This document shows positions 1,231-20,925 of a stretch of DNA of 20,925 nt, piece after piece (the stretch's first letter is position 1; each line of letters begins with the position of its first letter). The DNA is from Lama guanicoe. Lineage: Eukaryota. A program made the position numbers and the translations under genes. A model generated the notes under the pieces. That model was not told where the DNA came from, searched no databases, and was given only the letters and a program-made list of their open reading frames with translations. The stretch spans positions 824,017-844,941 of the forward strand of contig MU053136.1 in NCBI GenBank assembly GCA_013239625.1, in the 5' to 3' direction.

Positions 1231-1379
1231 AGATGGGGGTCACGATTCTCAACCCACAGCCGCCTTCCACAGTGGTGAGAGTGCCCCTCTCTTCCCTGAG
1301 TACAGTAGTTGGATTGGGGGTTGGATTTTTTTTTTAAGAAAAAGTCCCCTCTGTGTTACCCTTAACTAAGAGGAAACCA

Positions 1380-1943: not shown

Positions 1944-1960
1944 GGGAGTGTGAATTTCTT

Positions 1961-2185: not shown

Positions 2186-2226
2186 GGGAATGTGAATTTC
2201 TTAAACTTACGAAAAGTAATGCGGGA

Positions 2227-2707: not shown

Positions 2708-2744
2708 AGCGCAGGAGCACCTGTTAAAATAAAATAAAAAAAAA

Positions 2745-3220: not shown

Positions 3221-3329
3221 AAAAAGAATCAAAGAAACCCAAACATATTCTTGTGAAAAGGAAAACATAGGTATAGAAATACCTAAACCAGAAAGAAAAA
3301 TAATCAGGTCATCCTCTTAACTCAGATTA

Positions 3330-3853
3330 TGAAACCAAGTCCCCCTAAAACCGAGTTCCCTTACGAAGTTTACGATTCATCTCTTTAGCTAAAGCTTTAT
3401 CTCCTTTCTTGTCCCCTCTGACCTCAATTCTGTGGTCAGAATCAGAGTCAGATGACTACAACTGTTGTCAGTTGTACTGTTAGGTACTAAAATTGCCGTT
3501 ATAGATGTGTCATCAGTAATGTACAAACTCAGGTTATTTCTTCAGGGCAAGATGATCTCATAGACCCTCCAGTCATGGACCATCTGGCTGGAGAATCATA
3601 AACCAGAGACATCCTGACTCCCGAAAACATGATTAAGAAATGTCACAAGAAGATGTTTAACCCCAGCCTGTTCTTACCCTTTAAAAAAAAAAACCAAACC
3701 CTAACTTGAAGATCCCGGGGAAGTGCATCTGAGGCTTATAACTCCCACCCCTTTGCTTGGAGCCCTGCAATAAGCCTTACTTTGCTGTAGGCTCCTGCTG
3801 TCAGAGTTTGGCTTTCTTGTGTCTCGGGCACATGATCCCTTTGCTCTGTTACA
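3330..3853 (+). mobile_element. Putative ERV1-class solo LTR
   Basis: TG...CA termini (tgaaacc...tgttaca) with near 4-bp TSD atta/gtta. Internal TATA-like ctttaaaa (~3679), variant poly(A) signal aataag (3769-3774), and a U5-like tail (gtcagagtttggctttc). Confidence 0.55.
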
Positions 3854-3859
3854 GTTAGA

Positions 3860-4175
3860 CTAACCTGCTTTATTCACTTAACAATAATACATCAAGGGCA
3901 CCTTTCTGTGTCAATAAAAATCCTTCCCAACAACCCCTGTTAATGTTTTCGGGATACTCCATTGTTTGCTATATTGTAAAGTATTCAGTCAATTTCTTAT
4001 TCTTAGAGTTACATTACCTTTAGTTTTTCTGGTTATAAACCACAATGGTTACCCTGTATATACATCTTTACCCACTTGTCTTAGAAGTGAAATTGCTGTC
4101 AAGGATGTGCATATTGCTAATATGCCTTCTGCAAAGACTACAGCAGTTTATGTTCCCATCAGCAGTTTATGGCAG
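3860..4175 (-). mobile_element. Old L1ME-like fragment
   Basis: ttattcacttaacaataatac...tttctgtgtcaataaa...agaagtgaaattgctgtcaaggatgtgcatatt...tttatgttcccatcagcagtttatg. Confidence 0.6.
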
Positions 4176-5300
4176 GAGCCTAAAGAAGTATCTGACTAAT
4201 CATTCTTCATGAAAGCAGCAAAAAAAGATTTACTTAGATGAGCAGTTGGCAACGTTTTCACGTTGCTGTGCTGTACAAAGGATGTGGGTAGAACTCCAGT
4301 TATTGTGCATTCAGACACCATAATTCCTACTGACACACTGGGGGTGGGAAGGGTCACAAGAGGTTAGCCTAAAAGTCAGAAAATGAAAACAAATCTTTTG
4401 CACCGAGACTGAGGAGAGGAGATACACCAAAGCCTGGTTGATGCCTGCTTGGTTGGATGACTTGCAGTGCCATCTTCTGGCAGAGAAGCCAAAAACGTTC
4501 AATTTCCACGCTAGCAATAAAATATTTCTTTTAAGGACGACTACAGCAAAGGCTGGCAGGAGAACCCAGAGAAGTCTTAGGTGTTGGTGTGTTGGGGAGG
4601 GGCACAAGGGGGAAGAGAGCGGACTTCTTTGAAGCAAAGATCTGATTCATTTACATCGAAGTCTCTGGCAAAACCTGCAGTGTCTCCACCAGGCTACATT
4701 CAGCACATACAACAGGTGTGACCTGGAGAGTAACTAAGGTGCATTCACCCACCACCCTCCTCCAGCTTCTCGCTGGGATTCTCCAGGATCTCGGGGTCAC
4801 TCTAGGGGAGGCACATTAGCCAGAGGGCTACTCAGGACGACACCGCACTTGATCCCTTATTACCGTAAAGTCTGTTTCTATCTTTCAGAGTTCTGCAGTG
4901 AAGACATATACATAGACCACCAAACCTTTCTATATACCGGCAAGGAATGCTCACAGCCATTGGATGTAAAGGTATAGAAAACCACATCATACCTTTAAAA
5001 AAAATTCAAGACAGAAATAGTTTCTTGTTTTAATCATCCAAAATATGCTAGGAAAAGGCTTGCTTTTCAAAGCAAACTAGTTTTTAAAATGTGGCATCCC
5101 TAAGTAACAGGCCTCAAAGATTGAAAAAAAAAAGTCCGTTTTTCTGTGCATTATGTGCAGGGCAAATTTATCACATCCTCTACCCCAATTCACCTTGTAT
5201 CAATGAGTTCTGGCCCCTGGGTCGGCCTCACTCCTGCAGCTTCAGACTGCAGGCTCCTTTTCTTCTCTGCTGCTCCCTGCAGCCTCCTGCACCTGCAGAG

Positions 5301-5340
5301 CCCCGCCCCCGCCCGGCCGCTCCTTCCCGGCCGCCCCCGC
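5301..5340 (-). promoter_or_regulatory. Clustered Sp/KLF GC boxes
   Basis: ccccgcccccgccc at 5301-5314 and ccgcccccgc at 5331-5340 (GGGGCGGGG on the minus strand). Confidence 0.6.
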
Positions 5341-5361
5341 TCTGTGCAGGCTTCCGCTCGC

Positions 5362-5369
5362 TGACGTCA
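5362..5369. promoter_or_regulatory. Full palindromic CRE (CREB/ATF site)
   Basis: TGACGTCA at 5362-5369, inside the CpG island just downstream of the GC boxes. Confidence 0.65.
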
Positions 5370-7489
5370 CACGCCCGCGCCCGGGACGCCCCGCTCTCTG
5401 CACTGGCTCCAGATTTGGGGCTCCTGCTGTGGAATGCGGAGTTGGGGTCTCCGCGCGCTTCCCCGCGTGTCCCGGGACACAGCGCCCCACGGCGTGGCGA
5501 GGCGGGGGCACGAGCCGGCAGGTAGCGCCCAGTCCTCGTGCACCAGCCCCGCTGGGCCGCCTGCCGCCGCCTCTGAGAAGTTGGGGGTGGCGCCGGGGCA
5601 CTCCCCACGCTGTGTTGCCAGGGGCTCGGAAACTGGTTTGTTTCGTCGGGCGGCGCGGACCGGTCCCCCGGGGCGTTGGCGGGCGGTGCGGACCGCAGCC
5701 GGAGGGCCGGCCGGGGCTGCTGTCGGCGCGAGGACCGTGCGCCCCGGGTGGCGGACCTGGCTTCTTCAGGATGAGCTTCTCAGAGCGCGGGAGGGGCCCC
5801 CTGCCTCGCTGAGTCCGGGGGGAACGGCTTCCCGAAAGTGCTTCCCGACCGCCGCGGTTACGCGGCCGACGCCCTGGGTCGTTGAGGTGGGTGCGCCGGG
5901 AAGGCGGTGATGTGCCGAACAGTGAAGTCATTCAGCAAGTGCGGGGACCTTGCCTAGACTTCCTTACGTAGAGGTTGCTGGGGTCCTCACCTTAAGTGCA
6001 CGCGTCTCATTAAATTAAAATGTTGGTTCTAAGGAATGGAATGTATTACTGAGCAGCCCTTGGACGTTCTTTAAAAAGCTGTAGCGATAATGAGATTGAA
6101 ATAACATTACAAGTGTTACTGTTGATAAGAAGTTGTTTGCATTGCTTATGCATTGTCTCCGATCTTAAATTGCATATACGTTTTATTTAGAAAGTGAATA
6201 GCAGGTAACTGGTTAGCTTGTAATCCTACATTCCAGTTTCCATAATTTGAAACAGTTTCTGTAAGTAAGGCATGAAAAGTTCTACTTTTGGAGTTCATCA
6301 TAACTTTTTTAAATAGAGGCCTAATTTTTATTCTTAAATGTAAGATCCACCCCCAAGAAGAAATTTTTTATTGCCGTGGTAAGTTGCATCAGAAATAATT
6401 ACGAAGGATGAAAAGTGATACCCACTCTATGCTAATGATAGCCTTTTCTTGTGATGCAGGATTGTAGAGAGGATGGAGGAAAGCCAAAGGAGGAGTCGTT
6501 CTTTGTTTTTACTTTAGGTCTGTCTGATATTAGAGGATCCTCAGATGTGTTTGGTTTTAGATTGCCCATTGTTCTCAGTGAAAGCTAAGAAGCCTATGTT
6601 GTGGGAAAACAGGTTTTTGCACAAGAGTCACCATTAGAAGTTTAGAAGAGATTATGGAACTTGGCCACAGGAGTTCTTTTGAGGTCATTTTAATAATGCA
6701 TTGACATTGTGTTCCAGGTACATTTTACTCTGTCTAACCTTCTACCTTCTAATCTGAGTCTTGACATGACACCATTTCGGGAACATAAACCCGTTATTTA
6801 CACTTTGATACTTTCCACCAGGGAAGCTGTTAGTTGTTGTCTGAGTAGTCTGACAGCGAGGAAAAGACGTAACAGAGAAGAAAATCAAATATTTTGAAAA
6901 AAAGTCTAATAGGAATCCTGTTTTCTCTTTCTCAAATGATGAGAAATAAGGCAGGAACTTGTCCTCACTGAGGAGATAAGTTGACCCTCTCCCACAATCC
7001 CAAATGGTGTTTATTATTTGGGGAGAACTGTATGTATGGACTGTAGTTGCATGCAGTACCACAAGGACTTTTTGAAATCTGTTCTTTCCCAGTGTTTCCC
7101 TTCAGGACAACTTGCTTGTCCATCCGATAGCTGAAACAGCTGAGGAGGCTCACATCCCAGATTGGTGAGGTTACTGTTTTTCATCCATATCCTCTGACAT
7201 TTTTCATCTGTGGTGTAGAAAATTTTATTATGTCAAACATTGTTTATGTGTGGCTTACGGACAGTGTTAGTAAAATGTGAGGAAGGGTATCTAACTTGAC
7301 TAGAGGCTAAGACCTCTTTTCTGGAGCATAGTTGACATACTTGAATGATACTGTATAGAAAAATTTTGAATGTCAGGGTTAGAAGTTTGGAAATGGGGGA
7401 CTGTTCAAGAATGTTAACCAAGGAATTGATGTAGCTAGCATCCTTCCTGCTTCTTTTTATCAGTGTTTATTATTGTTTTTAAATTTAAA

Positions 7490-7905
7490 TTTTATTGTTT
7501 TGAATAGGTAATACATTCATATTGTTTACAATTCAGAAGGTACAAAAGATTGAAAAATCTTCTTGACCACTCAGTTCTCCTCCCTGAAGGCAGCCAGTAT
7601 TACCAGTTTGTTGTGTATCCCTGCAGGGATACTGCTCACGTACACAGGCAGTTGCGTGTGTTTGTATAAGTATAAGGGTTACATACATGCGTGCACACGT
7701 AAGTAAAGGTAGGTGTAAACATACACGAATTTATTTCCTTTTATTATGGAAATAATAGTATGTCATTTTTTATTCTGATACTTAGAAATGAATCCATATC
7801 AATGTGAATGTTGCTTCTTTCTCTTTGACTTGTTTATGGATACTTAAGTTTTGCCATTTCAAACGGTGCCGCAGAGGATAACTCTGCATAGGTATAATTT
7901 TTGTG
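7490..7905 (-). mobile_element. Old L1M 3' end fragment
   Basis: ttgaataggtaatacattcatattgtttacaattcagaaggtacaaaag...ctcctccctgaaggcagccagtattaccagtttgttgtgtatcc. Confidence 0.6.
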
Positions 7906-8587
7906 CATTTGGAAATTGTTAGAGACCTTAAGATACTGGCAGGCTGGTATAGTGATTTCCCCTGATGTTAGAAGCAGAAGTGTGGAAAGGATATTTATTT
8001 ATAATTGGGATTTCTTACAGTAATGAACTTAGAACAGCATTCACATGTGTCTTCAGTTACATGTTATGATGATTTTGGTTGTGTAAGCCTTTAGTACATT
8101 TGTTGTTACCTTTTATTTCATTTGGTTCAAAAAATCTAAGATTGTAATTTAGTGGAGAAGTCTCATGACTAGGAAGTAAGTACCTTCCTAGTTAGAGATG
8201 CTGCGAAACCCTGAAAGTAATCCGTCTTCTCATGTTTTCTCTTTCTCTTCCTCTGGTGTCCTGTACTAGTCTCGTGTAGATGCTGCAGAAAAGGAGGGAT
8301 TGTTGGTTCCTCTGAAACTCACCTGCCACAGGTCTTTCATTGTTCAGAAAGGTGTCTGCACTGGACATTATTTGGTGACAATTAGGGTCATCTTTCTTTG
8401 CTACCAGGGCAGTGGATCCTCGCCCACTTCCCTGAGGCAATGGAACACACTGCTAGTAATGTGTAGATGGTAGAACTCAGTGTACAGCCTCTGGTCTTGT
8501 TAGTGTGGCCCCTCAAAAGGAATTGGCAGCTAAATTTGGAGGGAGGGTCAAATGGAAGACTACTTTTGTTTTTCTTTCTTGGCAAAC

Positions 8588-8646
8588 ATCACAGAATAAT
8601 GATGGTTGTATAATAATCACAGAATAATGATGGTTGTATAATCACA
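8588..8646. repeat. 28-bp-period tandem duplication
   Basis: atcacagaataatgatggttgtataat occurs identically at 8588-8614 and 8616-8642, followed by a partial atcaca. Confidence 0.9.
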
Positions 8647-9319
8647 TTATATGGTTATTACTTAATGTAATTTGGTTTATGAAATTTAGTTTTCTCAGAT
8701 GAGTTTATACTTTTTCCAAGTAGCGTGGTAATGTATTTTGTCCTGGAGATATCATTAACTTCCGGCTGGTACCCAGATAGCTGTTGTATTATGTCATTTG
8801 ACCAAGCGTGAGCTTGAAAGTATGTTTGGAATGATTTTTCTTCTTTTACTCACTAGTGATGCTTCAGTGCTATTGTAATAGTTAATTTTTGGTTTCTTTT
8901 AAAGTTGATAAAAGCTTTGACATTTTTTATAGAAATTTTGAAAGAGAAAAGTTTTTGAAGGCAGAAGAAGGCTCTTTCCCACAAATGTCTATGAAGCGTC
9001 TTTATCCCATGATTTTACCACGGGCAGAGTTCTGGCTGTTCGTCTCACAGGCTCAGGATATGAATTTCATCATTTAAGGAGACTGGATCATTTTTTCAGA
9101 GGTCAAATAAAATTAAACTTACTGTTAATGGATGAAAACAGAACCTGGATTTGTTAATTTACAGTGAGAGGTATGGTAAACTCTCAGAAATCTAATACAG
9201 TCTTCATGACAAACCCATTTTTCTCCTTTTAAAAGGGAATCCTACATAGAAAGCCTGGTTGCTATGGGATGGAAGTAGAAAAGAGCAAGTTAAGTGCATC
9301 AGTAGTTTTCACATCATTT

Positions 9320-9785
9320 ATTTATACTTTATTTATTGTTTCATTGAAGGATAGCTGACTTATTGTATTAGTTCCAGGTGCACACACAGTGATTTGATTT
9401 TTTTATGCATTACAAAGTGATCACCATGACAAGTCTAGTTACCACCTGTCACCACACAGAGGTCTTACAGTGCTGTTGACTGTATTCCCTGTGCTGTACG
9501 TTACATCCTCATGACTTATTTATTTTAGAGCTGAAAGTTTGTACCTCCTGATCTCCCTAACCTAATTTGTTCATCCCTCAACCACCACCCCTCTGGCAGC
9601 CACCAGTTTATTCTCTGTGTCTATGAGTCTGTTTATCTTCTGTTATGTTTCTTCATTTGTTTTCTTTTTCAGATTCCACGGATAGGTGAAGTCATATGCC
9701 ATTTGTCTTTCTCTGTAGATCTATCAATGTTGCAGATAGCAAAATTTCATTCTTTTTGTGGGTGAGTAATATTCCAGTGTGTGTG
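9320..9785 (-). mobile_element. L1 3' end (L1MA-like)
   Basis: ttgaaggatagctgac...ttccaggtgcacacacagtgatttg...agattccacggataggtgaagtcatatgccatttgtctttctctg, a characteristic L1 3'UTR in antisense orientation. Confidence 0.8.
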
Positions 9786-9829
9786 TGAAAAATTAATAAA
9801 TTGTTCATATTAAAATAAACTTATATTTA

Positions 9830-10625
9830 AATAAAATTGAAAGGCAAATGACATATAAGCAAAAAAATTTGATAGAAAAGGGCTAACATTTTCATTAAAG
9901 AAGAAGCCTTTTTACAAACTAATAAAAAGTAGACCATCCCAGTAGGAAATGGACAAAAAACCTGAATAAATAGTTCAAAAGAGAAGAAATATAAATGTAG
10001 AAGAATTTTTCAAATTCATTGGTAAGCCAAACAGCTTCACATAAAAATGAGGCTCTCTTTCCCCTGTCAAAGGCAGTGAGTAACAGTAACAACAGACAGT
10101 GACACCGGGTTCCCGTGCGCCAGGGCTGTGCTCAGCGCCGTGCTGACGTTGACCAGTCCTCCAGTGCTTCTGAAAGTCAGCTGTTGTTGCCCACATCACA
10201 CAGGTGAACAGACCGAGCTGCTTAGAAAGGAGTGACTGTCCAAGGTCACGTAAGAAAAAAGTGTCAAAGCCAAGATTTAAACCCAGGCTCCCTGACTCAA
10301 AGGTTTTAGTGCTTTAACTGTTACCCTTTATTGCCTCTCAGAGATTATAATAACCAATGTGAAAGGAGTACATGGAGCAGGCACTTTTTGTTCACTGCTG
10401 ATCAGAATGTTAGTTAGAAAACATTTCTGTGAGATAGGTAAGCAGTACGGTTGGAAACTAGCAGGTGCCTCTTCTTTGAATTGGGAGTTTATCCTAAGGA
10501 AATCTTTATAATAAGTGCATAAAAATGTACAGAAATTTCATCTGAAGTCCTTTTATAATAGCAAGCACTGTAAACACCTAAAATGTCTAGTAAGAGGGTA
10601 TTAGTTACATAACTTTAGGAAATAC
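9830..10625 (+). mobile_element. Old L1M ORF2/3' fragment, interrupted by a MIR
   Basis: aaaggcaaatgaca...cccagtaggaaatggacaaaaaacctgaataaatagttcaaaagagaagaaatataaatg, resuming after 10330 with gagcaggcactttttgttcactgctg...gggagtttatcctaaggaaat...taaacacctaaaatgtctag. Confidence 0.55.
10080..10326 (-). mobile_element. MIR SINE
   Basis: gtgcgccagggctgtgctcagcgc...acaggtgaacagaccgagctgcttagaaaggagtgactgtccaaggtcac...gccaagatttaaacccaggctccctgactc, the MIR core in antisense. Confidence 0.75.
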
Positions 10626-11016
10626 TCTTATTAAGCTTGTATTCTTAGGGGAGATAATAAAGCAATCTGGCTAATTAGTTCATGTGGGAAAAGGTTTGCT
10701 GCTTTCTCCAGGTACATGAGGTATGTGTGGTGTTTGACTTTCCAGGGTATTCCTATAAAATTGATAAAATTGAAATGCCACTTTTTTTCTCTTTTTTCAT
10801 ATTTCTAGGTTGCATGAGTAAAATTGAAATAAAGCTTATTTAACTTTCAGTAAAGATTTTATGTACCTTTTTTTTTAAGAAACCAAATCACTAAGGAATT
10901 AGAATTTGAATTAACTGTTATAATTGTTACGGATGACATGCTTTAATCACTGTTCACTGTTACTCTTTTTTTCCTTTGTGATGTCTAGCACATCGTTAAG
11001 ATGCCTTAGAAGAACC

Positions 11017-11133
11017 ATGGAGAGATATGTCAGAGGACAGAAGTTTGGAGAAGGCTCATTCGGAAAAGCCGTTCTTGTTAAATCCACAGAAGATGGCAGG
11101 CAGTGTGTTATCAATGAAATTAACATCTCAAGG
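11017..11133 (+). pseudogene. NEK1: NEK1 pseudo-exon A (first coding exon, 117 coding nt, aa 1-39)
   Basis: ATG in good Kozak context (accATGg). Gly-rich loop GEGSFG is intact. VIK lysine codon is AAT (Asn) at 11113-11115. Canonical donor GTAAGT at 11134. Nearest upstream AG is 10987-10988, but the exon start is uncertain. Confidence 0.93.
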
Positions 11134-11536
11134 GTAAGTATGTTTTCCCTTTGGTTCTTCAAGTAGAAACCTGGTTACAAAAGGGCTCATTGTTAGAGAC
11201 TCTCAAAAAAATATATGGCAATACATAACCTAAAGTGAAAGACTGTCATGATCGCAGAGAGAACCAGCGTTTCAGAATAGTTTGTAAATCCTTTCAGATT
11301 TTTTTCTATGATGTGTGCTATGTTTGTGTTTAAAAAAGATGCAGCAGCTACTGTTCTGAAACTTAATCTAATTTGAACACCTTAAAATGTCTTGTGGATT
11401 CAACTCATTCTTTTCAGCTTCTTACTATTTGGACTCTCTTTATTGGTAGCTTTATTTGTAACCACTCTCTTTTTAATGGACTTTAGGTTGCGTGTAGATG
11501 GTTCCATTGACTGTTTCCTCTTCCCTCCTGTTTCAG

Positions 11537-11630
11537 GTGTCCAATAAGGAAAGGGAAGAATCAAACAGAGGTTGCGGTGCTGGCTAACATGAAGCATCCA
11601 GACATCGTCCAGTACGGGGTGTCCTTCGAG
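11537..11630 (+). pseudogene. NEK1: NEK1 pseudo-exon B (aa ~40-72), frameshifted
   Basis: Acceptor cctgtttcAG (11535-36). Only 7 nt (aacagag) lie where NEK1 has three codons (RRE), i.e. a 2-nt deletion at ~11564-11570. The shifted frame hits TAA at 11585-11587. A further 1 nt appears missing before the donor GTCAGA at 11631. Confidence 0.9.
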
Positions 11631-11914
11631 GTCAGATCAGTTTGGCAGGAGGGCTCAAAAGATCTCCTAAGCCATTTGACAACTGTTGTGTACTTCCCTT
11701 TCAAGGAATCATTTTGTGAGTTAGTCTCAGGAGGAAAAGTAGATCATTTCTGGTTCCATACCTGTGCGTGTGAGTGTCGGCTGATTCTTGAGTAACACTG
11801 GCAGCACACTGTCCCTGCGTGGCTTCACACTGGCTCGCTCACTAGGGTTAAAATGAGCCAGCGTGGTGAGTGCGAGAATTTGGACAAAGCAAGAACAGTC
11901 ATTTACAACGTTTA

Positions 11915-12066
11915 GGGTTTTTTTTCTTTTTTTTCGGGGGTGGTGGTGGTAAGTTAATTAGAAGTACTTACTTAATTTTTTTTTTTAATGGAGGCACTGG
12001 GGATTGAACCCAAGACCTCGTGCATGCTGAGCATGTGCTCTACCACTGGAGCCATACCCTCCCCCC
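11915..12066 (-). mobile_element. Vic-1-type camelid SINE (tRNA-Ala derived) with target-site duplication
   Basis: Reverse complement reads GGGGAGGGTATGGCTCCAGTGGTAGAGCACATGCTCAGCATGCACGAGGTCTTGGGTTCAATCCCCAGTGCCTCCATTAAAA (A box, B box, A-rich tail). Flanked by agtcatttacaacgttta (11897-11914) and agtcgtttacaactttta (12068-12085). Confidence 0.88.
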
Positions 12067-12934
12067 GAGTCGTTTACAACTTTTAACCCAAACTCCTTTT
12101 ACGTGCTACCACCACTGCCACTGAGAAAACATCCTGGTCTTTAGAAGGTATGCTGCTGGTCAGTGTTGTTCCGTGTACTTCGTTATTATAACACTGAGGT
12201 ACGTGGAGAGTCTTCTCGGTTGTTAAGTATTACGAAGCATTGCTGTTTTGAAATCACATGCCGTCATATCTGGTAATGCGGGAACTAAGGTGAGACGGCT
12301 TCTCTAAAAGCAGGTCGGGGTGGTTTATTGAAGTCCTGCTGAAGTCACCCCCATGATTATCATAAATCCCTGTTAATTACAAAGCTGAAAGATAACTAGA
12401 TTGAAAGTAGAAGACAGTTTAAGTGAGTGTTTCAGGGTCACATCACCAGTTTCAGCGTCTGAATTTGAGTTAAGGTATCTCTATTCCCGAATAAACTTGG
12501 TATCTATTGAAGTAGAGCGAACTTTAAAAAGTACGTGATGAGTTAACAGCCTGTGTCGTAAACTGCTCAGTGTGCTTGCTTGCTTTATGATGACAGTGCA
12601 ATGAGGCTTCATACCTCATGTGAAGCAGTACGGTGTTCACCGTCTGGTCCTTCCCAGGACCTTGAATTTCCTTTATCTCTCCTCATCTGGGTTTTTTTTT
12701 GGCTTTCAAAGTGAGAGGTGGCGAAAGGAGAAAAGTATCAGCGTTGCAGGGTTAGCCAGCCGGCCGTGCGTGCCCTGCTGCGCGGCCGCGGCTCCTGTCC
12801 TCTGTTAACCTCTCAGTCATTTTCTAACAGGCACTGAGGCGTCATCACTTGCCTGGCAGGCTTTTTGCTTCAGTTTCAAGCAGTTTCTAGGTGGCAGTTG
12901 TTTTGTTTTTTTTTTGGAGGGTGTTTCCTCAATA

Positions 12935-13050
12935 CCTTGTGAGCCCATTGGGGACAGGGGTGGTGTCTTATATTCTAATGTCCCTTAGCCTCTCATGCAT
13001 AGCGCCTGGGATGTAATTGGCCCTCAGCTATTTGAATGATTGAAGGAACG
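12935..13050 (+). mobile_element. L2 3' end
   Basis: tgtgagcccattggggacaggggtggtgtctta...catagcgcctgggatgtaattggccctcagctatttgaatgattgaaggaa matches the L2 terminal motif ending in (tgaa)n. Confidence 0.6.
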
Positions 13051-13226
13051 CAAGACAGATGAGTACTTCCCTCACAGAGAAAAGACCTTCCTGTTAACCT
13101 TACATTTTGACTAGTATTTATCCCCACATAACTGACAAATGCTTTCTTTAGGCATGGGAAAACATTGCAGAGCTCATTTTACATCAGGATCACTTCCCTG
13201 TCCCTTTCTCAGGTCCTATTTAACCT

Positions 13227-13277
13227 TCTCTGTCTCCCTGTCTCTGTCTCTGTGTCTCTCACACAGACACACACACT
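13227..13277. repeat. Compound CT-rich / (CA)n microsatellite
   Basis: tctctgtctccctgtctctgtctctgtgtctctcacacagacacacacact. Confidence 0.7.
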
Positions 13278-13299
13278 CATCTTTAAAAAAGATCTTCTG

Positions 13300-13660
13300 A
13301 TAGTTTTATTTGGTCTTTAATACATGCATACGGTACAGAATCCAGAGGTTAAATGACAGTAAAATGTTAGCTTTCTATTTCTGCCTGTGGGCCACCTGTT
13401 TTTCTCTCCTGGAGGTCACCCCTGTTTACGCTGTCTGTGTTTCCTTCCAGAAATTCTCTAAGCACTAATAAGCACGCAGAAGCAACAGCACACTGCACAT
13501 AACTTTTTGTCTTGTTTCTTGTGGCAGCATTCTGTGTCTATGTTATAAGTAGTGGATTGTACAGTTTGCTGGTTTTTGTGTTTTTCACATAGTGATTTCT
13601 CACGTGTGTATTTCGATCACCTTTTTATGTCAGTTATAAAGAGCTTCCGGATTTTTAATT
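13300..13660 (-). mobile_element. Old L1M 3' fragment
   Basis: taatacatgcatacggtacagaatccagagg...ggaggtcacccctgtttacgctgtctgtgtttccttccagaaatt; same family as 7490-7905. Confidence 0.5.
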
Positions 13661-14554
13661 AGCTCAGTCACACAGGTTCCCAGCCCCTGGCACATCAGAA
13701 GGAGTATGTCTGAGGTGCCTGTGACACTGCGGGCAACGAGACCAGCACCAGACGCGGGACGTGAGTCCTGCTGGGCGTCAGGCCGTCAGCACAAGGCAGT
13801 AGGAGCAGTGAGCACTGGGCGGCTGTTCTCTGAGTTCTAACAGTGGGGCTGGCCCCTCTTCCTTACGGGGTGGGGGCGGGTAGTGCCGTCTCATTCCTGC
13901 GTGACAGCAAGGGTGGGGACAAGGGTTAGCAGTGCCCTCTAGTCCCATCTGCCGCTGGAAGATCAGGAAGCCCTTTGTCCTGTGGACCCAGGCATCAAGA
14001 TCGGGGGGCGGCTGTCAGGTGACAGCCAGTGCTCAGCGGGAGGAAAGGCAGAGTGCCCCCGGACCACAGGGACACCCCCGCACTGCCACGTCCTCAGAGC
14101 TCAGTGCAGCGTCTCTCACTGTGTTTGTTGAACAGGTCATTGAGTGGATGCCGCAAAGCTGCACAGTCATGGTCAGCCAGCTGGCAGCCAGGATCACCCA
14201 TCTCTGACAGATGGGTGGAAATACAGGATTCTTGTAGATGACCTTTAAGGATATATATCTATTAAACAAAATCGAGTCTGTCTGTCTGCATTTTGTCTGT
14301 ATCCCAGACATGCCTGTGTCGGTGTGGACACTGCTGTCCACCTGGATGCTGTGTTCTTGGTAGAAAAATCGTTCATGACGGCCGTCGTCTGTTAACCCAA
14401 GTTACTGCTCGGTCTGTGTGACCAGTGTTCCTTGACTCTGCCCTTTCGTTCTTTTGACTGTGGTTCTGTTTTTGGTTTAACGGAACACAATTAACTGCTG
14501 CTTTTTAGTAAATGTTTGGGTACCTTTAATAAAGCTATACTTTTGATGTACATT

Positions 14555-14785
14555 TTACTTATTTATTTTTTCCTGTTTTAAATTGAAGTAGAGTTGATTT
14601 ACACTATTGGGTTAATTTCAGGTGTACAGCAAAGTGATCAATTAAACATAAAGTTACATTTTTACAATCTTTTAAAAAAATTTTTCCATTACAGTTTATT
14701 ACATGATGTTGAATGTAGTTCCCTGTGCTGTACAGTAAGTTCTTGTTGTTTATCTGTTTTATGTATGGTAGCGTACATCTGTTAC
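14555..14785 (-). mobile_element. L1 3' end fragment just upstream of pseudo-exon C
   Basis: aattgaagtagagttgatttacactattgggttaatttcaggtgtacagcaaagtgatc...gatgttgaatgtagttccctgtgctgtacagtaagttcttgttgtttatctgttttatgtatggtag; similar to the 1961-2185 element. Confidence 0.8.
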
Positions 14786-14830
14786 TGAGCTGCACTTTAA
14801 AAAAACAAATGTAATGTTTCTGTCTTGTAG

Positions 14831-14928
14831 AAAACGACTCTCTTTACATGGTGATGGACTCCTGTGAAGGCGGGGACCTGTTTAGACAAATTAACGCCCA
14901 GAAAGGCATTTTGTTTCAAGAGGATTAG
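14831..14928 (+). pseudogene. NEK1: NEK1 pseudo-exon C (aa ~72-104, hinge region), nonsense codon and dead donor
   Basis: Acceptor tgtcttgtAG. 98 nt encoding [32 protein letters not shown], then TAG at 14926-14928 in place of Gln104. Followed by TTGAGT instead of GTGAGT. Confidence 0.92.
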
Positions 14929-15749
14929 TTGAGTCAGCATATAGGGGTTGTTGAGAAGTAATTCAGCGTTTGTTTATATACATGTTTGTTGTAGCTACAA
15001 GTGCTAGCTGTGAGGACTAGGTGTGGTTGTTTGGTGGCATATTCCAGTGTCGTAGTCACGCTTCTGTTCTAGTTACTGCCCTCCTTGGTTCAGTTCCCAT
15101 CTCACGCCCCGTCTGTGATAATATTGTTACTAGTGTAATAGTTGTTGTGTCCTGGTGTGTATGTACGTGTGTAAGTACATATTTAAGTAGGTGACTTAAT
15201 TATTCTTTGTAAGTGATTGATTATTCTGTACCCTGTCAGTCTGGCCACTGCCACTGGACCATATCTTCCTGAAATGTGGCTTTGCCAGGTAACTCCAGCC
15301 CTGGAAGTCGCGCACTGGCAACTGCATAAGATCTAATCTCTGTTTTGATTTCAGGGATCTCTAAAGTATGTGCCCATTCACCTACACAGCCTGGTTGTTT
15401 TCTGTTCCCTAACATGCACCTTTTTCATCGATGTAAAGGATGTTGATTGTGCATGCACTTTGTGGTCGGCGCTGGGGCACATTTACCCCTCTTGTTCTTC
15501 CTCTGTGTGTGTGTTCTCATTATTTATTTTATTGTGGTAATACCTCCCGCCAAGCCCAACTCTCTGTTACTAATATCCTGCTTTTCTTTTTTCAAGCTCA
15601 GCTCAGGTCTTCGCCTTTTCTTTACATTTCTCGTAGGTCCTCTGATCTTCTGTGATCTTTTTCTTCTCTGAATTCCTGTTGTGTTTCTCATTACCACCCA
15701 CTCTCAATTTTGCTTCCGTGCTTCTACATAGGGGAAGGGAGGGAGCGCT

Positions 15750-15915
15750 GTGCTGGGAGTGGTGTACTTGTTGTCCCATTTAATTCTGTAACCCCCCTGA
15801 ATTAGCAGACTGTGGTTTCTCTACTTATCAGATAAGAAATCCAACGTGAAGTAGCTTGCCCCAAGTCACAGTTGGTGTTTGAACCTGCTTCTATCTAACC
15901 CCAAAGTTTATAAGA
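15750..15915 (-). mobile_element. MIR SINE fragment
   Basis: cccatttaattctgtaacccccctga...cagataagaaatc...gtgaagtagcttgccccaagtcacag...tttgaacctgc. Confidence 0.65.
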
Positions 15916-16104
15916 CTTTCTTTTTATAAGATGTTTCTTTTTGGAGACTTAAATTGTGAAATTATTCAGAGGTTTGAGGGTGGAAAGTCATCTTCTCCCA
16001 CTGACTTTGGTTTGGGGTCCTCCCAGACTTCCTTGTTCGTACTGCATGTGTAAGTGCGTACACCGAGACACAGTCACAAATGGGGTCACATACATGCCTT
16101 GCTC

Positions 16105-16200
16105 TCTTTTTTTGTAATGTTTTCACTGAAGTGCAGTCAGTGTACAGCGTTGTGTCAGTTTCTGGCGTACAGCACGATGCTTCAGTCATGCATGTTATTG
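16105..16200 (-). mobile_element. Very short L1 3' end fragment
   Basis: ctgaagtgcagtcagtgtacagcgttgtgtcagtttctggcgtacagcacgatgcttcagtcatgcat is homologous to 1990-2052. Confidence 0.7.
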
Positions 16201-16499
16201 CGGGTAGACCGCCTGCAGTGAGACGCACCTGAGCGTGATCGTCATTCTCTTTTTGCCCTTTTCCTGACCCCTCCCTGGTGGAATTCATTGCTCTCTCAGT
16301 GCACATGCTGTTAGAGGACGGGTGCATTTCCTTGTAGGTGTTTGTCTAAAAGTATATTCCTACCACTGCGTGAGCTCAGAGTCGGAGAACTGTGTTTCAT
16401 TCTTCTACTTAAAATGCCGTATAGGAATATGGAAAGGAAGTTCAACATTTGTGTAGTCCTCAGTAAATACCTACCAAACTGAACTCAGGGTTTTTTTTT

Positions 16500-17600
16500 T
16501 AATTAATTTAAAAATTAATTTTAGGTTACTGTAATGTAATATTTGTTCCTTAAAAAAATAGTAGAGAGAGAAGAGTAAAAAATAAAGCTGGTCACTTTCA
16601 TTCTTCTGAAAATCCACTTCCCTGAGGAAGACACTGTTAGAGATTGGTCGCTGTCCTGTGTGTCCCCTACACATGCCACACGGTCATAGACAGTCACCGA
16701 GACAGTCCATGTGTGATGGACATGAACATACTTTAATAAAGGAGTGCGCTATGCGTGCTGTTCCGGGCCTTTCTTCCCCTTCACTGTGTACGCATGGCGA
16801 GGTCCTTCATTCTCCCCGGCAGCTGCACAGTATTTCAGTGATGCCAACGGTGACCTCTGACCAGGACTCTGGATGGATATTTAGGTGTGCAGGTTTAGAT
16901 GGATGAGCAGTGCTGGGGTAAACATCCCTTTGCAGCTCCGTTCGTGTTTGTGACACTTTCTCTGCAGGATAAATTTGAAATTGCAGCTACTCTTTCAAAT
17001 GGTAGGTGAGGGTAAAATTTTTACATTCTTTGCCAAGTAACTGTAATCAGCTTTCTCACAAGCAGGGTGTGCAGAGACTGGCTTATTCCTCGACCAGCAC
17101 TGTTTATAACTTCAGTTTTGTCAGGTTACCATGGTACCTTGTTTTAATTGCTTTTTTTTGATTTGGGGGAGAGTCGTGTGTAATTTATGTGTTATCGGCT
17201 TTCATTTCCTCCGTCACTTACCTTGCCCATCTTTTGTCCACCTCTTACTCTGGCTGCCGGTGTTTTTCTCAGTAATTTTGAAGAACTGTTGTATCCCAGA
17301 GAACTAATAATCTATCAGTTTTGTTGCAGGTATTTTCTCAGATAATCATTAAGCTTAATTATATGTTTTGCCATCCAGCTGTTTTAAAATGTATATAGTC
17401 ACCTTTCCTTGTGACTTGTGGGTTTCGTATCATGTTTTGAAAGTCCTGCTTCAACCAAAGAGTATAGAAAATTGCCCTGTGTTTTCTTCCTTCATTTTAC
17501 AGTTTAATTTTTGTGTACTTAAAAATGCCGTCTACTTGGAATTGTTGTGGTGTTAGGAGTGAGGTGGCTATTCAGCCTTTTTATGTTCAAGTGGCCAGCT
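16500..17600 (-). mobile_element. Degraded L1ME-like element
   Basis: T-rich sequence with L1 antisense motifs (ggatggatatttaggt, ctctgcaggataaattt, ggtaccttgttttaattgc, cttgcccatctttt, gttgcaggtattttctcag, ggagtgaggtgg). Confidence 0.55.
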
Positions 17601-18084
17601 CCCGAGGGTGTGTTTATATGTGATGAATGAGGGGAGAGGGAAAAGCCAGAGATGTTGCCCAAATTTCCAGCCTGACTTCTTCCTCTTGTGGTTTCTACTT
17701 ATATAGAAAAGTTACACTTAACAACGAAGGACAGTCCCTCATCGTCATACTCTCCTACAACATGGAGTATTTCCATTTTCCACTCTTCTCGGGAAACTTC
17801 TTTCCCTGTGCATTCTGACTTGTAGGGATCCTTCAGTAGCAGCGTCCTCCGTTCAGACTTAGCACGGGCACTGTACACGGTATGTACGTCAGTTGGCCTG
17901 AATATCTACTTAATGTTATTCACATTAATTACCGTGGAATTAAAAATTGCAGCCTAATTATTTTAAGGATTTAATTCTCTTTGTCCCAAATATTCCTGAG
18001 TCCTTTTAATGATCAAGGAAAGACTACTTACTGTGAAAGGTAAATTAAAAAAAAAATGACGGATCTGATTCCCTACCCCCCAAG

Positions 18085-18166
18085 ATTTTGGATGGGTTTG
18101 TACAGATGTTTGGCCCTGAAGCATGTACATAACATAAAAATTCTTCATTGAGACATAGAATCACAG
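18085..18166 (+). pseudogene. NEK1: NEK1 pseudo-exon D (aa 105-132, catalytic loop), frameshift and HRD stop
   Basis: 82 nt where 28 codons (84 nt) are expected; 2-nt deletion at ~18106 (cag a tgt). CAT TGA GAC ATA GAA reads H*DIE in place of HRDIK, with TGA at 18149-18151. Donor is GCATGT. Confidence 0.92.
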
Positions 18167-18379
18167 GCATGTTGATTTTGTCACTGATGCCTTCTAGGTG
18201 GTCGTGGACGTGGGCGTTGTCTCGGGCCGGACTGTGTGGGCTGGATGGCATCTGGATCAGACTGTCTGTCTCCCTATCACTGCTCTCTTCCCCTATAACC
18301 CAGGAATCCTCCTTGCAGGCAGCCTCCTCTTTTCTTGGCTTCCTCTCTCATTAGGATGGAAAAATCCAAACAAACGATT

Positions 18380-19340
18380 GTGTGGAAGGTGTATTTTTTT
18401 TTGAGAGATTTGTCATCTCCAAATACACAATCTTATTTCTTATCTTAGTGATAATTTGGATATAAACTTCCAAGCTGGCAATTGTTTTCCTACAGAATTT
18501 TGAAGATGTTGCTCATTTGTCTTTCGGCTTCTTGCGTTGCTGTGTAGGAATTCATGGCTTCTTGCCCTTGTTTCTTGTCTCTGGCTGACTGTAGGATATC
18601 CTCTCTGTCCCCATTCTGAAATTTCTCAGAAATTTGTGCGTTAGTGAGGCTCTGCTTTTATCCATTGTGCTGTGTACTTTTGTGGGGGAGGGAAGTGGAG
18701 GTAATTAAGTTTATTTATTTACTTTTAATTTAACGGAGATACTGGGGATTGAACCCATGATGTCGTGCATGCTAAGCATGGACTTTGCCACTGAGCTGTA
18801 CCCTCCCATTCTGTGCTATTTTGAGAATGTGTATTTCCTTTAGAAATATTCTAGACAATGTTTAGCTGTATTTTTTCAGGCAGTATTCCTCAGTGGCTAC
18901 TTTCATGGTCATCTCCTGGGTTTTTTTCTAGAGAGGTGTTGGAGCCTCTTAATCTGTCCCTTCAGGTATCTTGTTCTTTCACATTTTATCTCTGTTTCTC
19001 TCAGTTGTATTCAAGATGAATTTTTCAGCCTCCTTCCAGTTAACTAACTAAGCGCCTTTCTGATTTTGTGTAAACTAGTGCTTATCTCATCTCTTTCCCT
19101 TTCTATTATAATGACTGTGTCTGTCTCTCCAAGATGCCTAAATGGCTTTTCACGTCTATCTGTTCTTACTGTAATTGGTTTCTGTTTCATAATGTCTTGT
19201 TCTTCTCAAATGCATATTGATTTCTTCAGTGATTTCTTTGCTATTATCTAAATATATTTACTTCAGAGTTTTTGTTGTATAAAATTAATTCTGGAGTGAC
19301 TTTTTGTTCTGATTATTTTGTTGGTGGTTTTTCTTTGTAT
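18380..19340 (-). mobile_element. Degraded L1/HAL1-like fragment hosting the second Vic-1 SINE
   Basis: cttagtgataatttggatataaac...ggcaattgttttcctacagaattttgaagatgttgctcatttgtctttcggcttc...ttctgaaatttctc; antisense L1 5'/ORF1-type motifs. Confidence 0.5.
18678..18807 (-). mobile_element. Second Vic-1-type SINE
   Basis: actggggattgaacccatgatgtcgtgcatgctaagcatggactttgccactgagctgtaccctccc aligns by eye to the 11995-12066 copy. Same ggtaatta..tttattt tail structure. Confidence 0.85.
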
Positions 19341-19879
19341 TCGATTTCTTCATGTGTATTGGATTTTGCTGGGGGGTAGGGATGGGGGTGGATGTCTCCA
19401 CGGCTTGCTCATCTTTGCATCAGGATTTCTTTCATGGCTGCCTGGCTGGGGCTCTCAGTCCCCAGAGTTTGGTGCAGGGGCATTGTCTCCTGGTGTCAAG
19501 GCGATGCGTCTGTCTTCCTTCCTCTGGACGCCCCTTCTTCTGTACCTGGAGAGCCCAGGAAGAGCAGTGGGAAGAAGAGGAAGAAATGAATATGCTGTCT
19601 CCCAACCTCTGCCGCCAGCTCCCGTCTCAGACCATTTTAGCGCCTTCCCCTCAGCCCTGCCTTGGCTGCTGGTGGCTGTGAGCGCCTGCTTGACTCACAC
19701 CTCCTGCTGACAGTGGGGTCAGTTCACGTTGCCCAGGAGCTCCTGGCCGCGCTGTTGGATGATGGCGCCCGGAAGTCAGGAGCGCACTTTCTGTCTGTGG
19801 ATGTGCCTTCCCTGGACGCTCTGTGTAAGCGGGGTCACGTGGTTGGTGACTGCCTGCTGTATAACAGCCTTATCTGGTA

Positions 19880-20220
19880 GTTACTGAGTTACAAGAGGTC
19901 TTTATTCTAGATACAAATTGTCTGTCAGATACATGGTGTGCAAATATTTCCTGAATTCTGTGGGTTATATATTCACTTTCTTGATGTCCTTTGCACAGAA
20001 GTTTTTGATTTTGATGAAATCCAGCTTATCTATGTTTTCTTGTTTTTGCTTGTGCTTTTGGTGCCATATCTAAGAAATCAGCATGTAACCCAGTGGCATG
20101 AAGTCAGGAGTCTAACAGTTCTTGTATTTAGGTCTGGAATGGTTGTGGAGTTAATTTTTGCATATGGTGTGTGATAGGGGTCTACATTCGTTCTTTAGCA
20201 TTTGGAGATCCAGTTACCGC
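19880..20220 (-). mobile_element. L1M (L1MB-like) ORF2 fragment
   Basis: tctttattctagatacaa..tcagatacatggtgtgcaaatatttcc...gcacagaagtttttgattttgatgaaatccagcttatc...gcttttggtgccatatctaagaaatc...gagttaatttttgcatatggtgtg. Confidence 0.8.
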
Positions 20221-20319
20221 GGTTTCACTTTTTAACCGGATTCATTTTTATGACTGAAGTCATCAGTTCAGAACTGGCCTGCAGCAGTATTTCTGGGTTT
20301 TTTTCTGTCTCGTTTATAG

Positions 20320-20387
20320 AACATATTTTTAACCAAAAATGGGGCGGTACAACGTGGAGACTTTGGAATGGCTAGAGTTCTTAATAG
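20320..20387 (+). pseudogene. NEK1: NEK1 pseudo-exon E (aa 133-155, DFG motif)
   Basis: Acceptor cgtttatAG. 68 nt reading NIFLTKNGAVQRGDFGMARVLN(S); DFG retained. Followed by TTGATG, so no GT at the expected boundary. Confidence 0.92.
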
Positions 20388-20519
20388 TTGATGTCAGTTT
20401 TAAACTTCTGTTTGGGATAATGTCTTCAGTGAGATTTTAATCCATGCTTATGAACTTGTGGTAATTTATGACATCTTTAAGTGTCTCAGGCTTCTCCACT
20501 GTCTCTCTTTCTGTTGCAG

Positions 20520-20606
20520 CACTGTGCAGCTGGCTCGAATTTGCGTAGGGACCCCGTACTACTTGTCACCTGAAATCTGTGAAAACAAACCTTATGATAA
20601 TAACAG
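20520..20606 (+). pseudogene. NEK1: NEK1 pseudo-exon F (aa 155-184, activation loop / GTPYYLSPE)
   Basis: Strong acceptor ctctctttctgttgcAG. 87 nt reading [28 protein letters not shown](S). T162 codon is ATT (Ile) at 20539-20541. Followed by ATACTT instead of GT. Confidence 0.92.
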
Positions 20607-20716
20607 ATACTTAAAATGATACTCATTACTTGATGTATTTCAAGTCTTTCTCTGTTACACTGTATTTATTAACTTTCAGAATATTATTCTAAAGTCAATA
20701 TTTCACATGTGTAAAC

Positions 20717-20734
20717 ATATATATATATATATAT
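20717..20734. repeat. (AT)n microsatellite
   Basis: Uninterrupted atatatat run at ~20717-20734. Confidence 0.8.
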
Positions 20735-20925
20735 CTAAAGATACACTTTTTCTGTATATGAGGGAAATTGTGAAGAAGCTATTTCACTATCTTACTGAAG
20801 GAACTATAGAAAGAATTATTATTTAAATTACAATGAGACATAGATTGCTTTCTGTGTCTCTCACTTTGTAATAGTCACCTCCTGTTGAATTATAGTAGTT
20901 AGTATTGACTGAACACTGTTAAAAA

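What the first reader, a model, noticed from the sequence alone, without database searches (positions are those of the whole stretch)
5290..20606. Intron-retaining NEK1 pseudogene with its own promoter in a camelid-like genome: duplicate or unitary loss?
Seen: six ordered NEK1 kinase exons with repeat-filled introns and an upstream CpG island, carrying several independent disabling lesions (K33N; deletions at ~11567, ~11630 and ~18106; TAG 14926; TGA 18149; four non-GT donors). The mix of substitutions and indels argues against sequencing error. Known: NEK1 is a conserved ciliary and DNA-damage kinase; loss of function causes short-rib polydactyly in humans, polycystic kidney disease in kat mice, and raises ALS risk. 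Inference: this is either a decayed segmental duplicate, which seems more likely, or a lineage-specific loss, which would be remarkable. The window alone cannot decide.
Basis: partly seen in the sequence, partly recalled or inferred. Interest (0 to 1): 0.75.

Follow-up and report, generated by a model that had tools for sequence, protein, structure and literature searches.

The report
Dead duplicate of camelid NEK1
This is the decayed front end of an old extra copy of the NEK1 kinase gene in a South American camelid genome that keeps an intact NEK1 at its normal place next to CLCN3, so it is an ordinary dead duplicate and not a loss of the gene.

Summary
The window carries six ordered NEK1 kinase exons with introns and an upstream CpG island.

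The open question is settled. The same genome has a second locus on contig C7321. It encodes residues 1-625 of annotated alpaca NEK1 with no residue uncovered. It lies head-to-head with a ClC-3 (CLCN3) gene.

The window is colinear with that locus from position 210 to the contig end, exons and introns alike. Non-CpG divergence is 9.6%. It is therefore an unprocessed pseudogene made by segmental duplication, not a unitary loss.

The copy continues on other contigs to at least NEK1 residue 878, about 69 kb in total.

Residue polarity places the duplication on the camelid stem, after the split from other artiodactyls and before the alpaca-camel split.

One feature is mildly unusual. The copied CpG island has kept its CpGs as well as the parent's island has.

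Interest is low.

The parts
1..209 (.). Flank outside the duplicated segment (insertion-site side)
   Evidence: No colinear match to C7321. Homology starts at window 210 = C7321:491015. The sequence read resembles the 3' end of an L1 element by recall only; this was not tested.
210..1315 (-). Copied DNA from the CLCN3 side of the shared promoter (parent C7321:491015-489918)
   Evidence: 88.2% identity over 1113 columns.
1316..3087 (.). 1772-base insert present only in the copy; holds a high-copy SINE-like element at about 1955-2186
   Evidence: Gap in the parent row of the pairwise alignment. Genome search gave 4707 first-look candidates; 38 of the 40 scored matches cover insert positions about 639-871 at 86-91% identity, the other two being the window itself and a match at 1571-1772.
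3088..5199 (-). Copied upstream DNA on the CLCN3 side
   Evidence: Part of the block window 3088-11914 = C7321:489919-481147, 86.4% identity.
5200..6250 (.). Copied CLCN3/NEK1 CpG island (presumed bidirectional promoter)
   Evidence: GC 0.71-0.75 and CpG observed/expected 0.87-0.94, matching the parent's 0.84-0.92. 60 of 87 parent CpGs are kept here, against 75 of 229 downstream.
11017..11133 (+). NEK1 pseudo-exon E1 (residues 1-39); K33N
   Evidence: 12 substitutions in 117 bases.
11537..11630 (+). Pseudo-exon E2 with 2-bp and 1-bp deletions
11897..12067 (.). 171-base insertion present only in the copy; repeat-like
   Evidence: Gap in the parent row. Window 11919-12064 matches another genomic place at 86%.
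14831..14928 (+). Pseudo-exon E3; TAG at 14926-14928; donor TT
18085..18166 (+). Pseudo-exon E4; 2-bp deletion after 18105; TGA at 18149-18151; donor GC
20320..20387 (+). Pseudo-exon E5 (DFG motif kept); donor TT
20520..20606 (+). Pseudo-exon E6; donor AT
20607..20925 (+). Copied intron running into the end of contig C190; the copy continues on other contigs
   Evidence: C190 is 844941 bases long and the window ends there. Continuation at C52523:945-1078 and C2564:162579-164749, both 87% to the parent.

Best explanation
The window holds the 5' third of an unprocessed (intron-retaining) NEK1 pseudogene. It arose when a genomic segment of at least about 69 kb was duplicated to another place in the genome. 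That segment carried the CLCN3-side flank, the shared CLCN3/NEK1 CpG island and NEK1 from exon 1 to at least residue 878. The copy has since drifted without constraint on its coding sequence, collecting stops, frameshifts, lost splice donors, the loss of the catalytic lysine and new repeat insertions. The original NEK1 next to CLCN3 stayed intact and does the gene's work. The duplication happened on the camelid stem lineage, after camelids split from other artiodactyls and before the alpaca/llama and camel lineages split. That is tens of millions of years ago. What is shown: two loci, colinearity, the lesions, the intact parent, the ClC-3 neighbour and the residue polarity. What is inferred: the age in years, presence in Camelus, and any remaining promoter activity.
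For: (1) Copy number. E1, E2 and E5-E6 each find exactly 2 places in the 2.05-Gb assembly: the window and C7321 at 87-89% identity. In each search 2 of 2 candidates were scored.

(2) Colinearity. Window 210-20925 is colinear with C7321:491015-472289 through exons and introns, in four blocks at 84.6-88.2%. Substitutions are 58 of 547 aligned exon bases (0.106) against 1134 of 8953 intron bases (0.127). The exons are thus hardly better kept than the introns.

(3) Intact parent. The parent exons cover residues 1-625 of alpaca NEK1 P0003 with no residue missing, and mismatches lie only where matches overrun exon ends. Later exons up to residue 1228 are found on C7321. One parent exon is 100% identical to Vicugna pacos NEK1 and matches the solved NEK1 kinase domain 4apc at E = 2e-36.

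(4) Synteny. Voltage_CLC exons lie at C7321:539055-547745 on the strand opposite to NEK1. The largest exon aligns over 186 residues to solved ClC-3 at 402 bits, with 179 of 186 residues identical by my count of the printed alignment. The window's own homology stops about 5 kb beyond the island. Upstream it meets an SDR-family gene remnant and L1 pieces instead.

(5) Neutral decay of the copy. Among 429 codons compared there are 53 replacements specific to the copy and 7 lesion codons. dN is 0.079. That is about half of the intron distance (p = 0.127, about 0.14 after Jukes-Cantor correction by my arithmetic). This is the value expected when one branch is neutral and the other constrained.

(6) Age. 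16 residue states are shared by alpaca and both Camelus proteins and absent from 12 outgroups, six of them other artiodactyls. The copy shares 8 of these, keeps an outgroup state at 5 and has a third state at 3. With 8 non-artiodactyl outgroups the counts are 10 shared and 7 ancestral, and the copy has the ancestral state at 2 of 2 alpaca-only changes.

(7) Not an assembly ghost. There are 203 indel events and 1648 non-CpG substitutions in 17255 sites against the parent. 14 DNA-type runs under four organism codes hold 0.84-0.89 of the copy's sampled words.
Against: Pairwise dN/dS within the six exons is 0.30 (32 non-synonymous and 25 synonymous differences). This is lower than the roughly 0.5 expected for immediate death. 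Taken alone it could mean a short period of constraint on the copy. The synonymous count is small, and the intron distance gives about 0.56.

At 2 of 7 Camelus-only residue changes (233 and 665) the copy carries the Camelus state. The simple scenario does not predict this.

No run that could be recognised as Camelus appeared among the holders, so presence of the copy in camels is not shown.

The copy is spread over at least four contigs (C190, C52523, C2564, C6062). One break lies inside contigs. Its present structure, and whether it was one event, are uncertain.

The last NEK1 exons (residues 878-1231) gave no copy match, but that search ran with reduced sensitivity.
Confidence: 0.95

Rival explanations
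1. Unitary loss: this is the only NEK1 of the lineage, inactivated in place.
For: Many independent disabling lesions lie in a locus that keeps its introns and CpG island.
Against: A second locus in the same genome encodes residues 1-625 of annotated alpaca NEK1 without a gap, and its later exons are present. That locus, not the window, lies beside ClC-3. The window's homology to the NEK1/CLCN3 region ends 5 kb beyond the island.
Confidence: 0.01
2. Assembly or sequencing artefact: the window is a badly assembled haplotype or an error-ridden copy of the real NEK1.
For: The copy sits at a contig end. The region is fragmented into small contigs (C52523; C169, 1898 bases).
Against: Non-CpG divergence of 9.6% over 17255 sites and 203 indel events are far beyond allelic or error levels. 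The copy has insertions of 1772 and 171 bases that the parent lacks. At that divergence few 31-base words are shared with the parent, yet 14 DNA-type runs from six studies hold 0.84-0.89 of the copy's words.
Confidence: 0.02
3. Young duplication confined to South American camelids, arising after the split from camels.
For: No recognisable Camelus run was among the holders. A 2026 paper reports alpaca-specific pseudogene-rich duplicated blocks that are absent or reduced in camels, though for other genes (NEK10, ATF5, FMN2; passages read).
Against: The copy keeps the outgroup residue at 5 of 16 camelid-specific states, or 7 of 17 with the other outgroup set. Alpaca and camel NEK1 share the derived state at all of these. 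I estimate chance reversion at well under one such site. The copy shares 0 of 2 alpaca-only derived states. Divergence from the parent is about 10-12%.
Confidence: 0.05
4. Coding-dead, but the copied bidirectional CpG-island promoter is still active and gives non-coding transcripts. This is an addition to the best explanation rather than an exclusion of it.
For: The island of the copy is as CpG-rich as the parent's (observed/expected 0.87-0.94 against 0.84-0.92). CpG-to-TpG/CpA changes affect 11 of 87 parent CpGs in the island against 109 of 229 downstream. Losses are symmetric between the two copies: 27 of 87 parent CpGs are absent in the copy and 22 of 82 copy CpGs are absent in the parent. 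This pattern fits both islands having stayed unmethylated in the germ line.
Against: There is no expression evidence. The RNA runs hold 0.15-0.28 of the words. Their contig totals (405-939 million letters) are 20-46% of the genome size, so those shares are what untargeted coverage would give. Low methylation does not require transcription.
Confidence: 0.3

Closest known systems
NEK1 (serine/threonine-protein kinase Nek1), the camelid orthologue on contig C7321
   Same: Same exon order, exon sizes, intron positions and upstream CpG island. DNA identity is 84.6-88.2% across 20.7 kb. The glycine-rich loop and the DFG motif are still readable.
   Different: The copy has two stops, three frameshifting deletions, four lost GT donors, K33N, and a stop in place of the HRD arginine. 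It is not next to a complete CLCN3 gene.
Unprocessed (duplicated) pseudogenes made by segmental duplication in mammals
   Same: Introns, promoter and flanking non-coding DNA were copied. Exon and intron divergence are similar (0.106 against 0.127). An intact parent exists elsewhere.
   Different: Nothing essential. The copy is old (about 10% non-CpG divergence) and now lies in several assembly pieces. Its CpG island has not decayed.
Alpaca pseudogene-rich duplicated blocks (NEK10-like, ATF5, FMN2 copies) described in PMC13751797
   Same: Gene fragments duplicated into repeat-rich regions of a South American camelid genome (passages read).
   Different: Those blocks are multicopy (19 Nek10-related sequences) and are reported absent or reduced in camels. 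Here there are two copies only, the gene is a different one, and the residue evidence points to an origin before the alpaca-camel split. The paper does not mention NEK1; its 'NEK1' word hits are NEK10.

Membership tests
Functional NEK1 / protein kinase | Uninterrupted reading frame across the kinase exons | tested here: not met
   TAG at 14926 and TGA at 18149; deletions of 2, 1 and 2 bases in E2 and E4.
Functional NEK1 / protein kinase | Catalytic lysine of subdomain II (K33) and the HRD arginine | tested here: not met
   K33N (AAA>AAT). The HRD arginine codon is TGA. The motif names are from general kinase knowledge.
Functional NEK1 / protein kinase | Glycine-rich loop and DFG motif | tested here: met
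   Both are still readable in the codon-wise translation of the copy. They are relics, not evidence of function.
Functional NEK1 / protein kinase | Canonical splice sites at every exon | tested here: not met
   Donors of E3, E4, E5 and E6 are TT, GC, TT and AT. The donors of E1 and E2 are GT, and the acceptors of E2 to E6 are all AG.
Unprocessed pseudogene from segmental duplication | Introns and flanking non-coding DNA copied colinearly with the parent | tested here: met
   Window 210-20925 is colinear with C7321:491015-472289.
Unprocessed pseudogene from segmental duplication | An intact parent gene elsewhere in the same genome | tested here: met
   C7321 covers residues 1-625 of P0003 with none missing. 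Exon hits reach residue 1228. Residues 626-1231 were not checked base by base.
Unprocessed pseudogene from segmental duplication | Coding sequence evolving like non-coding sequence | tested here: met
   Exon p-distance 0.106 against intron 0.127. 53 copy-specific replacements in 429 codons. The pairwise dN/dS of 0.30 rests on 25 synonymous differences.
Unitary pseudogene (lineage-specific gene loss) | No intact copy in the genome, and the dead locus in the ancestral syntenic position | tested here: not met
   An intact copy sits beside ClC-3 on C7321. The window's upstream neighbour is an SDR gene remnant, not CLCN3.
Processed pseudogene (retrocopy) | Introns absent, poly-A tail, no parental promoter | tested here: not met
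   The copy retains the introns between the six exons, the 5' region upstream of E1 and the CpG island.

The most novel reading that the evidence does not exclude
The copied CLCN3/NEK1 bidirectional CpG island has been kept free of germ-line methylation for tens of millions of years because it still works as a promoter. It would drive camelid-specific non-coding transcripts: a NEK1-like RNA with early stops on one strand and a CLCN3 5'-end RNA on the other. Such transcripts could influence the parent genes. The coding part would be dead while the regulatory part lives on.
Probability: 0.1. Interest if true: 0.45.

Novelty: new member of a known kind. Interest (0 to 1): 0.13.

Why it matters
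The main value is negative. NEK1 is a ciliary and DNA-damage kinase whose loss causes severe disease in human and mouse (general knowledge; human disease links were seen in passages of PMC12047270 and PMC10273745). A natural knockout in camelids would therefore have been remarkable. It is not one, because the gene is intact at its syntenic place.

Practically, the copy is a trap for gene-loss screens, exon capture, variant calling and primer design in camelids.

It also adds to a picture of a duplication-prone region. Two unrelated dead duplicates lie within about 25 kb at the end of one contig.

Finally, it offers a small natural experiment on how long a copied CpG island escapes CpG decay after its gene has died.

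Tried and rejected
There is therefore no read-level confirmation, no RNA start or splice evidence, and no look at organism E.

(2) Shares of words as evidence of expression or of a camel copy. RNA runs X15, X16 and X20 hold 0.28, 0.28 and 0.15. Organism-E runs hold 0.21-0.28. I read them as partial, untargeted coverage of near-identical DNA. They are evidence neither of transcription nor of a diverged relative.

(3) Marker search for the copy in other species. A protein search with the 229-residue open frame of the copied CpG island found nothing: none of 7553 candidates scored E <= 1e-10, not even the query itself. Such non-genic frames are evidently not in that collection.

(4) Genome search with parent stretch C7321:450001-460000. 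It was swamped by dispersed repeats (8507 candidates, 38 scored, no copy hit listed) and was uninformative.

The full extent of the copy was therefore mapped by searches only.

Exons were then located with the stored protein P0003.

(7) Literature. Three full-text searches found no paper on a NEK1 duplicate or pseudogene in camelids. The top hit, PMC13751797, concerns NEK10-like copies (passages read).

(8) Earlier notes of this scan. No look-alike windows in other genomes and none by words.

(9) A first dN/dS run used exon ends that were off by one or two bases. It was redone.


Full report
WHAT IS IN THE WINDOW

The window is G000:C190:824017-844941 (+). It ends exactly at the end of the 844,941-base contig, in a 2.05-Gb assembly of 55,231 contigs.

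tblastn with annotated alpaca NEK1 (P0003, obtained) finds six ordered pieces of the kinase domain on the + strand. Nucleotide alignment to the second locus fixes the exons at these window coordinates:
- E1 11017-11133
- E2 11537-11630
- E3 14831-14928
- E4 18085-18166
- E5 20320-20387
- E6 20520-20606

- K33N (AAT at 11113-11115).
- A 2-bp deletion after 11564 and a 1-bp deletion near 11629.
- TAG at 14926-14928.
- A 2-bp deletion after 18105.
- TGA at 18149-18151, in place of the HRD arginine.
- Donors TT, GC, TT and AT after E3 to E6.

The start codon, the donors of E1 and E2, the AG acceptors of E2 to E6, the glycine-rich loop and the DFG motif survive.

A CpG island lies at about 5200-6250, with GC 0.71-0.75 and CpG observed/expected 0.87-0.94.

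DUPLICATE OR UNITARY LOSS

Genome searches with E1, E2 and E5-E6 each return exactly two places: the window and C7321 at 87-89% identity. C7321 is a 12.55-Mb contig.

BLASTN shows the window colinear with C7321:491015-472289 from window position 210 to the last base, through exons and introns alike. There are four blocks at 84.6-88.2% identity.

The C7321 exons read open. They cover residues 1-625 of alpaca NEK1 with no residue missing, and mismatches lie only where matches overrun exon ends. Further exons up to residue 1228 lie downstream on the same contig. One C7321 exon translates 100% identical to Vicugna pacos NEK1 and 99% to Camelus NEK1. It matches the solved NEK1 kinase domain 4apc.

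Upstream of it, on the opposite strand, are Voltage_CLC exons at C7321:539055-547745. The largest aligns end to end with solved ClC-3 at 402 bits, with 179 of 186 residues identical by my count.

In human, NEK1 is the next-nearest gene to CLCN3 (passages of PMC10273745; both genes lie in one chr4 duplication in PMC12047270). The head-to-head orientation in human is recalled, not read.

So C7321 is the syntenic, intact orthologue. The window is a duplicate.

NATURE AND EXTENT OF THE COPY

It is an unprocessed pseudogene. The copy retains the introns between the six exons, the 5' region upstream of E1, the CpG island and about 5 kb on the CLCN3 side.

Homology stops at window 210. Upstream on C190 are L1 ORF1 remains and two adh_short exons on the minus strand (L017:9254-9694 and 5147-5491). 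These came from a Pfam scan of the 100 longest of 384 open frames of 45 residues or more in the 40 kb upstream.

Since duplication the copy gained a 1772-base insert (1316-3087) holding a high-copy SINE-like element. It also gained a 171-base repeat-like insert (11897-12067). An older dispersed repeat in intron 2 (about 14553-14787) is shared with the parent.

Past the contig end the copy continues as follows:
- C52523:945-1078 and C2564:162579-164749, both 87% to the parent.
- Down C2564 to about 138067.
- C6062:462841-459370, and on to exons for residues 624-670 and 818-878 at C6062:455401-455541 and 441916-442098.

More lesions occur there: a stop in the exon for residues 818-878 and a one-residue gap at residue 440.

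The tiny contig C169 (1898 bases) is 85.4% identical over 1804 columns to the parent's CLCN3 exon plus flanking introns. CLCN3 sequence about 52 kb beyond the window's boundary was therefore also duplicated at a similar divergence.

The copy thus covers at least parent 491015-421502, about 69 kb. It is now in several assembly pieces, with one break inside contigs. Whether that break is a rearrangement or a mis-assembly I cannot tell.

No copy of residues 878-1231 was seen, but that search ran with reduced sensitivity.

HOW IT HAS EVOLVED

Across the pairwise alignment, non-CpG divergence is 1648 of 17255 sites (0.0955; K2P 0.103), with 203 indel events.

Exons differ at 58 of 547 aligned bases (0.106) and introns at 1134 of 8953 (0.127). 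Pairwise dN/dS over the six exons is 0.30 (32 non-synonymous and 25 synonymous differences; dN 0.079, dS 0.26). Against the better-sampled intron distance (about 0.14 after correction, my arithmetic), dN is about half. That is the expectation if the copy drifted neutrally from the start while the parent stayed constrained. The low pairwise ratio rests on few synonymous sites, so I do not read it as evidence of a functional period. A short one is not excluded.

Polarised against outgroup proteins, 53 replacements in 429 codons are specific to the copy.

AGE

I compared 429 codons (the window's six exons plus five more copy exons fetched). The comparison set was alpaca NEK1, two Camelus NEK1 proteins and 12 outgroups. 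Six outgroups are other artiodactyls (pig, hippopotamus, two whales, oryx, buffalo). The other six are horse, dog, tiger, a bat, a lemur and a sloth.

Sixteen residue states are shared by alpaca and both camels and absent from all 12 outgroups. The copy shares 8 of them, keeps an outgroup state at 5 (three clean; two match only one outgroup) and has a third state at 3.

With the first set of 8 non-artiodactyl outgroups, and a rule that at least 6 of the 8 agree, the counts are 10 shared and 7 ancestral. At the 2 alpaca-only derived states the copy is ancestral both times.

About 12% of codons are changed in the copy. I estimate chance reversion to the ancestral residue at well under one site, so 5-7 is far too many. 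The duplication therefore falls on the camelid stem: after the split from other artiodactyls and before the alpaca-camel split.

The 10-12% DNA divergence gives roughly 30-60 million years with recalled mammalian substitution rates. That figure is rough and inferred.

This predicts an orthologous dead copy in camels, which I could not test.

Two observations do not fit neatly:
- At 2 of 7 Camelus-only changes (residues 233 and 665) the copy has the Camelus state.
- No recognisable camel run appeared among the holders.

THE COPIED PROMOTER

In 500-base windows the copy's island has CpG observed/expected 0.87-0.94, against 0.84-0.92 in the parent. Flanks of both sit at 0.1-0.5.

Of the parent's CpGs, 60 of 87 are kept in the copy's island, against 75 of 229 downstream and 14 of 36 upstream. 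Methylation-type CpG-to-TpG/CpA changes are 11 of 87 in the island against 109 of 229 downstream. Losses are symmetric between the two copies.

This is the pattern expected if the copied island, like the parent's, has stayed unmethylated in the germ line. That suggests, but does not show, that it still behaves as a promoter.

The RNA runs' shares of words (0.15-0.28) are no more than their contig totals predict for untargeted coverage.

IS IT REAL DNA

At about 10-12% divergence few 31-base words are shared with the parent. Yet 14 DNA-type runs under four organism codes, from six studies, hold 0.84-0.89 of the sampled words of window 10900-20899. One of them may be the source sample. Together with the copy-specific insertions, this argues against an assembly ghost.

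COMPARISON WITH WHAT IS KNOWN, AND NOVELTY

This is a textbook unprocessed pseudogene from a segmental duplication.

Three full-text searches found no paper describing a NEK1 duplicate in camelids. The nearest paper, on alpaca pseudogene-rich blocks, deals with NEK10, ATF5 and FMN2 copies (passages). Supplementary files were not consulted. Genome annotation records, which may already list the locus as a pseudogene, could not be consulted.

I file it as a new member of a known kind, of low interest. The one feature that might repay a look is the undecayed CpG island.

Noticed in passing
L017:5147-5491 and L017:9254-9694 (C190:809163-809507 and 813270-813710), minus strand, about 10-15 kb upstream of the window: Two open frames match Pfam adh_short (E = 1.1e-17 and 1.3e-8). 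Two unrelated dead duplicates therefore sit side by side at the end of one contig, which suggests a duplication-prone region.
   Followed up: partly
L032 = contig C169:1-1898: The whole small contig is an 85.4% copy of C7321:542105-543900, a CLCN3 exon with flanking introns, with a TAG in the exon match. CLCN3 sequence far beyond the window's duplication boundary was therefore also copied, at similar divergence. Where it belongs is unknown.
   Followed up: partly
C54823:932-1087: A small contig carries the NEK1 exon for residues 290-341 at 98% protein identity, the same as the parent exon's match. It is probably an unplaced haplotype or a collapsed repeat of the parent rather than part of the old copy.
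   Followed up: no
window 6001-9000: Non-CpG divergence from the parent is 0.068-0.073 here, against 0.0955 overall and 0.10-0.12 further downstream, about 3 standard errors lower. Possible causes are constraint on the parent's first intron, a local rate difference or past gene conversion. None was resolved.
   Followed up: no
copy exons on C2564 (residue 233) and C6062 (residue 665): At two residues where Camelus NEK1 differs from alpaca and the outgroups, the pseudogene carries the Camelus state. This could be parallel transitions or an ancestral polymorphism. It remains unexplained.
   Followed up: no
C2564:138067 and C6062:462841: The copy breaks between two contigs at nearly the same parent position (C7321:445505 and 443406), and both contigs run on with unrelated DNA. 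This is either a rearrangement after the duplication or a mis-assembly.
   Followed up: no
C1724:4239061-4239774, C1866:14420832-14421587, C7236:9144533-9145177 and others: Long single-frame matches at 31-34% identity to the NEK1 kinase domain, with open frames of 349-511 residues and no stops. They are presumably other kinase genes or retrocopies with an uninterrupted kinase domain. They were not examined.
   Followed up: no
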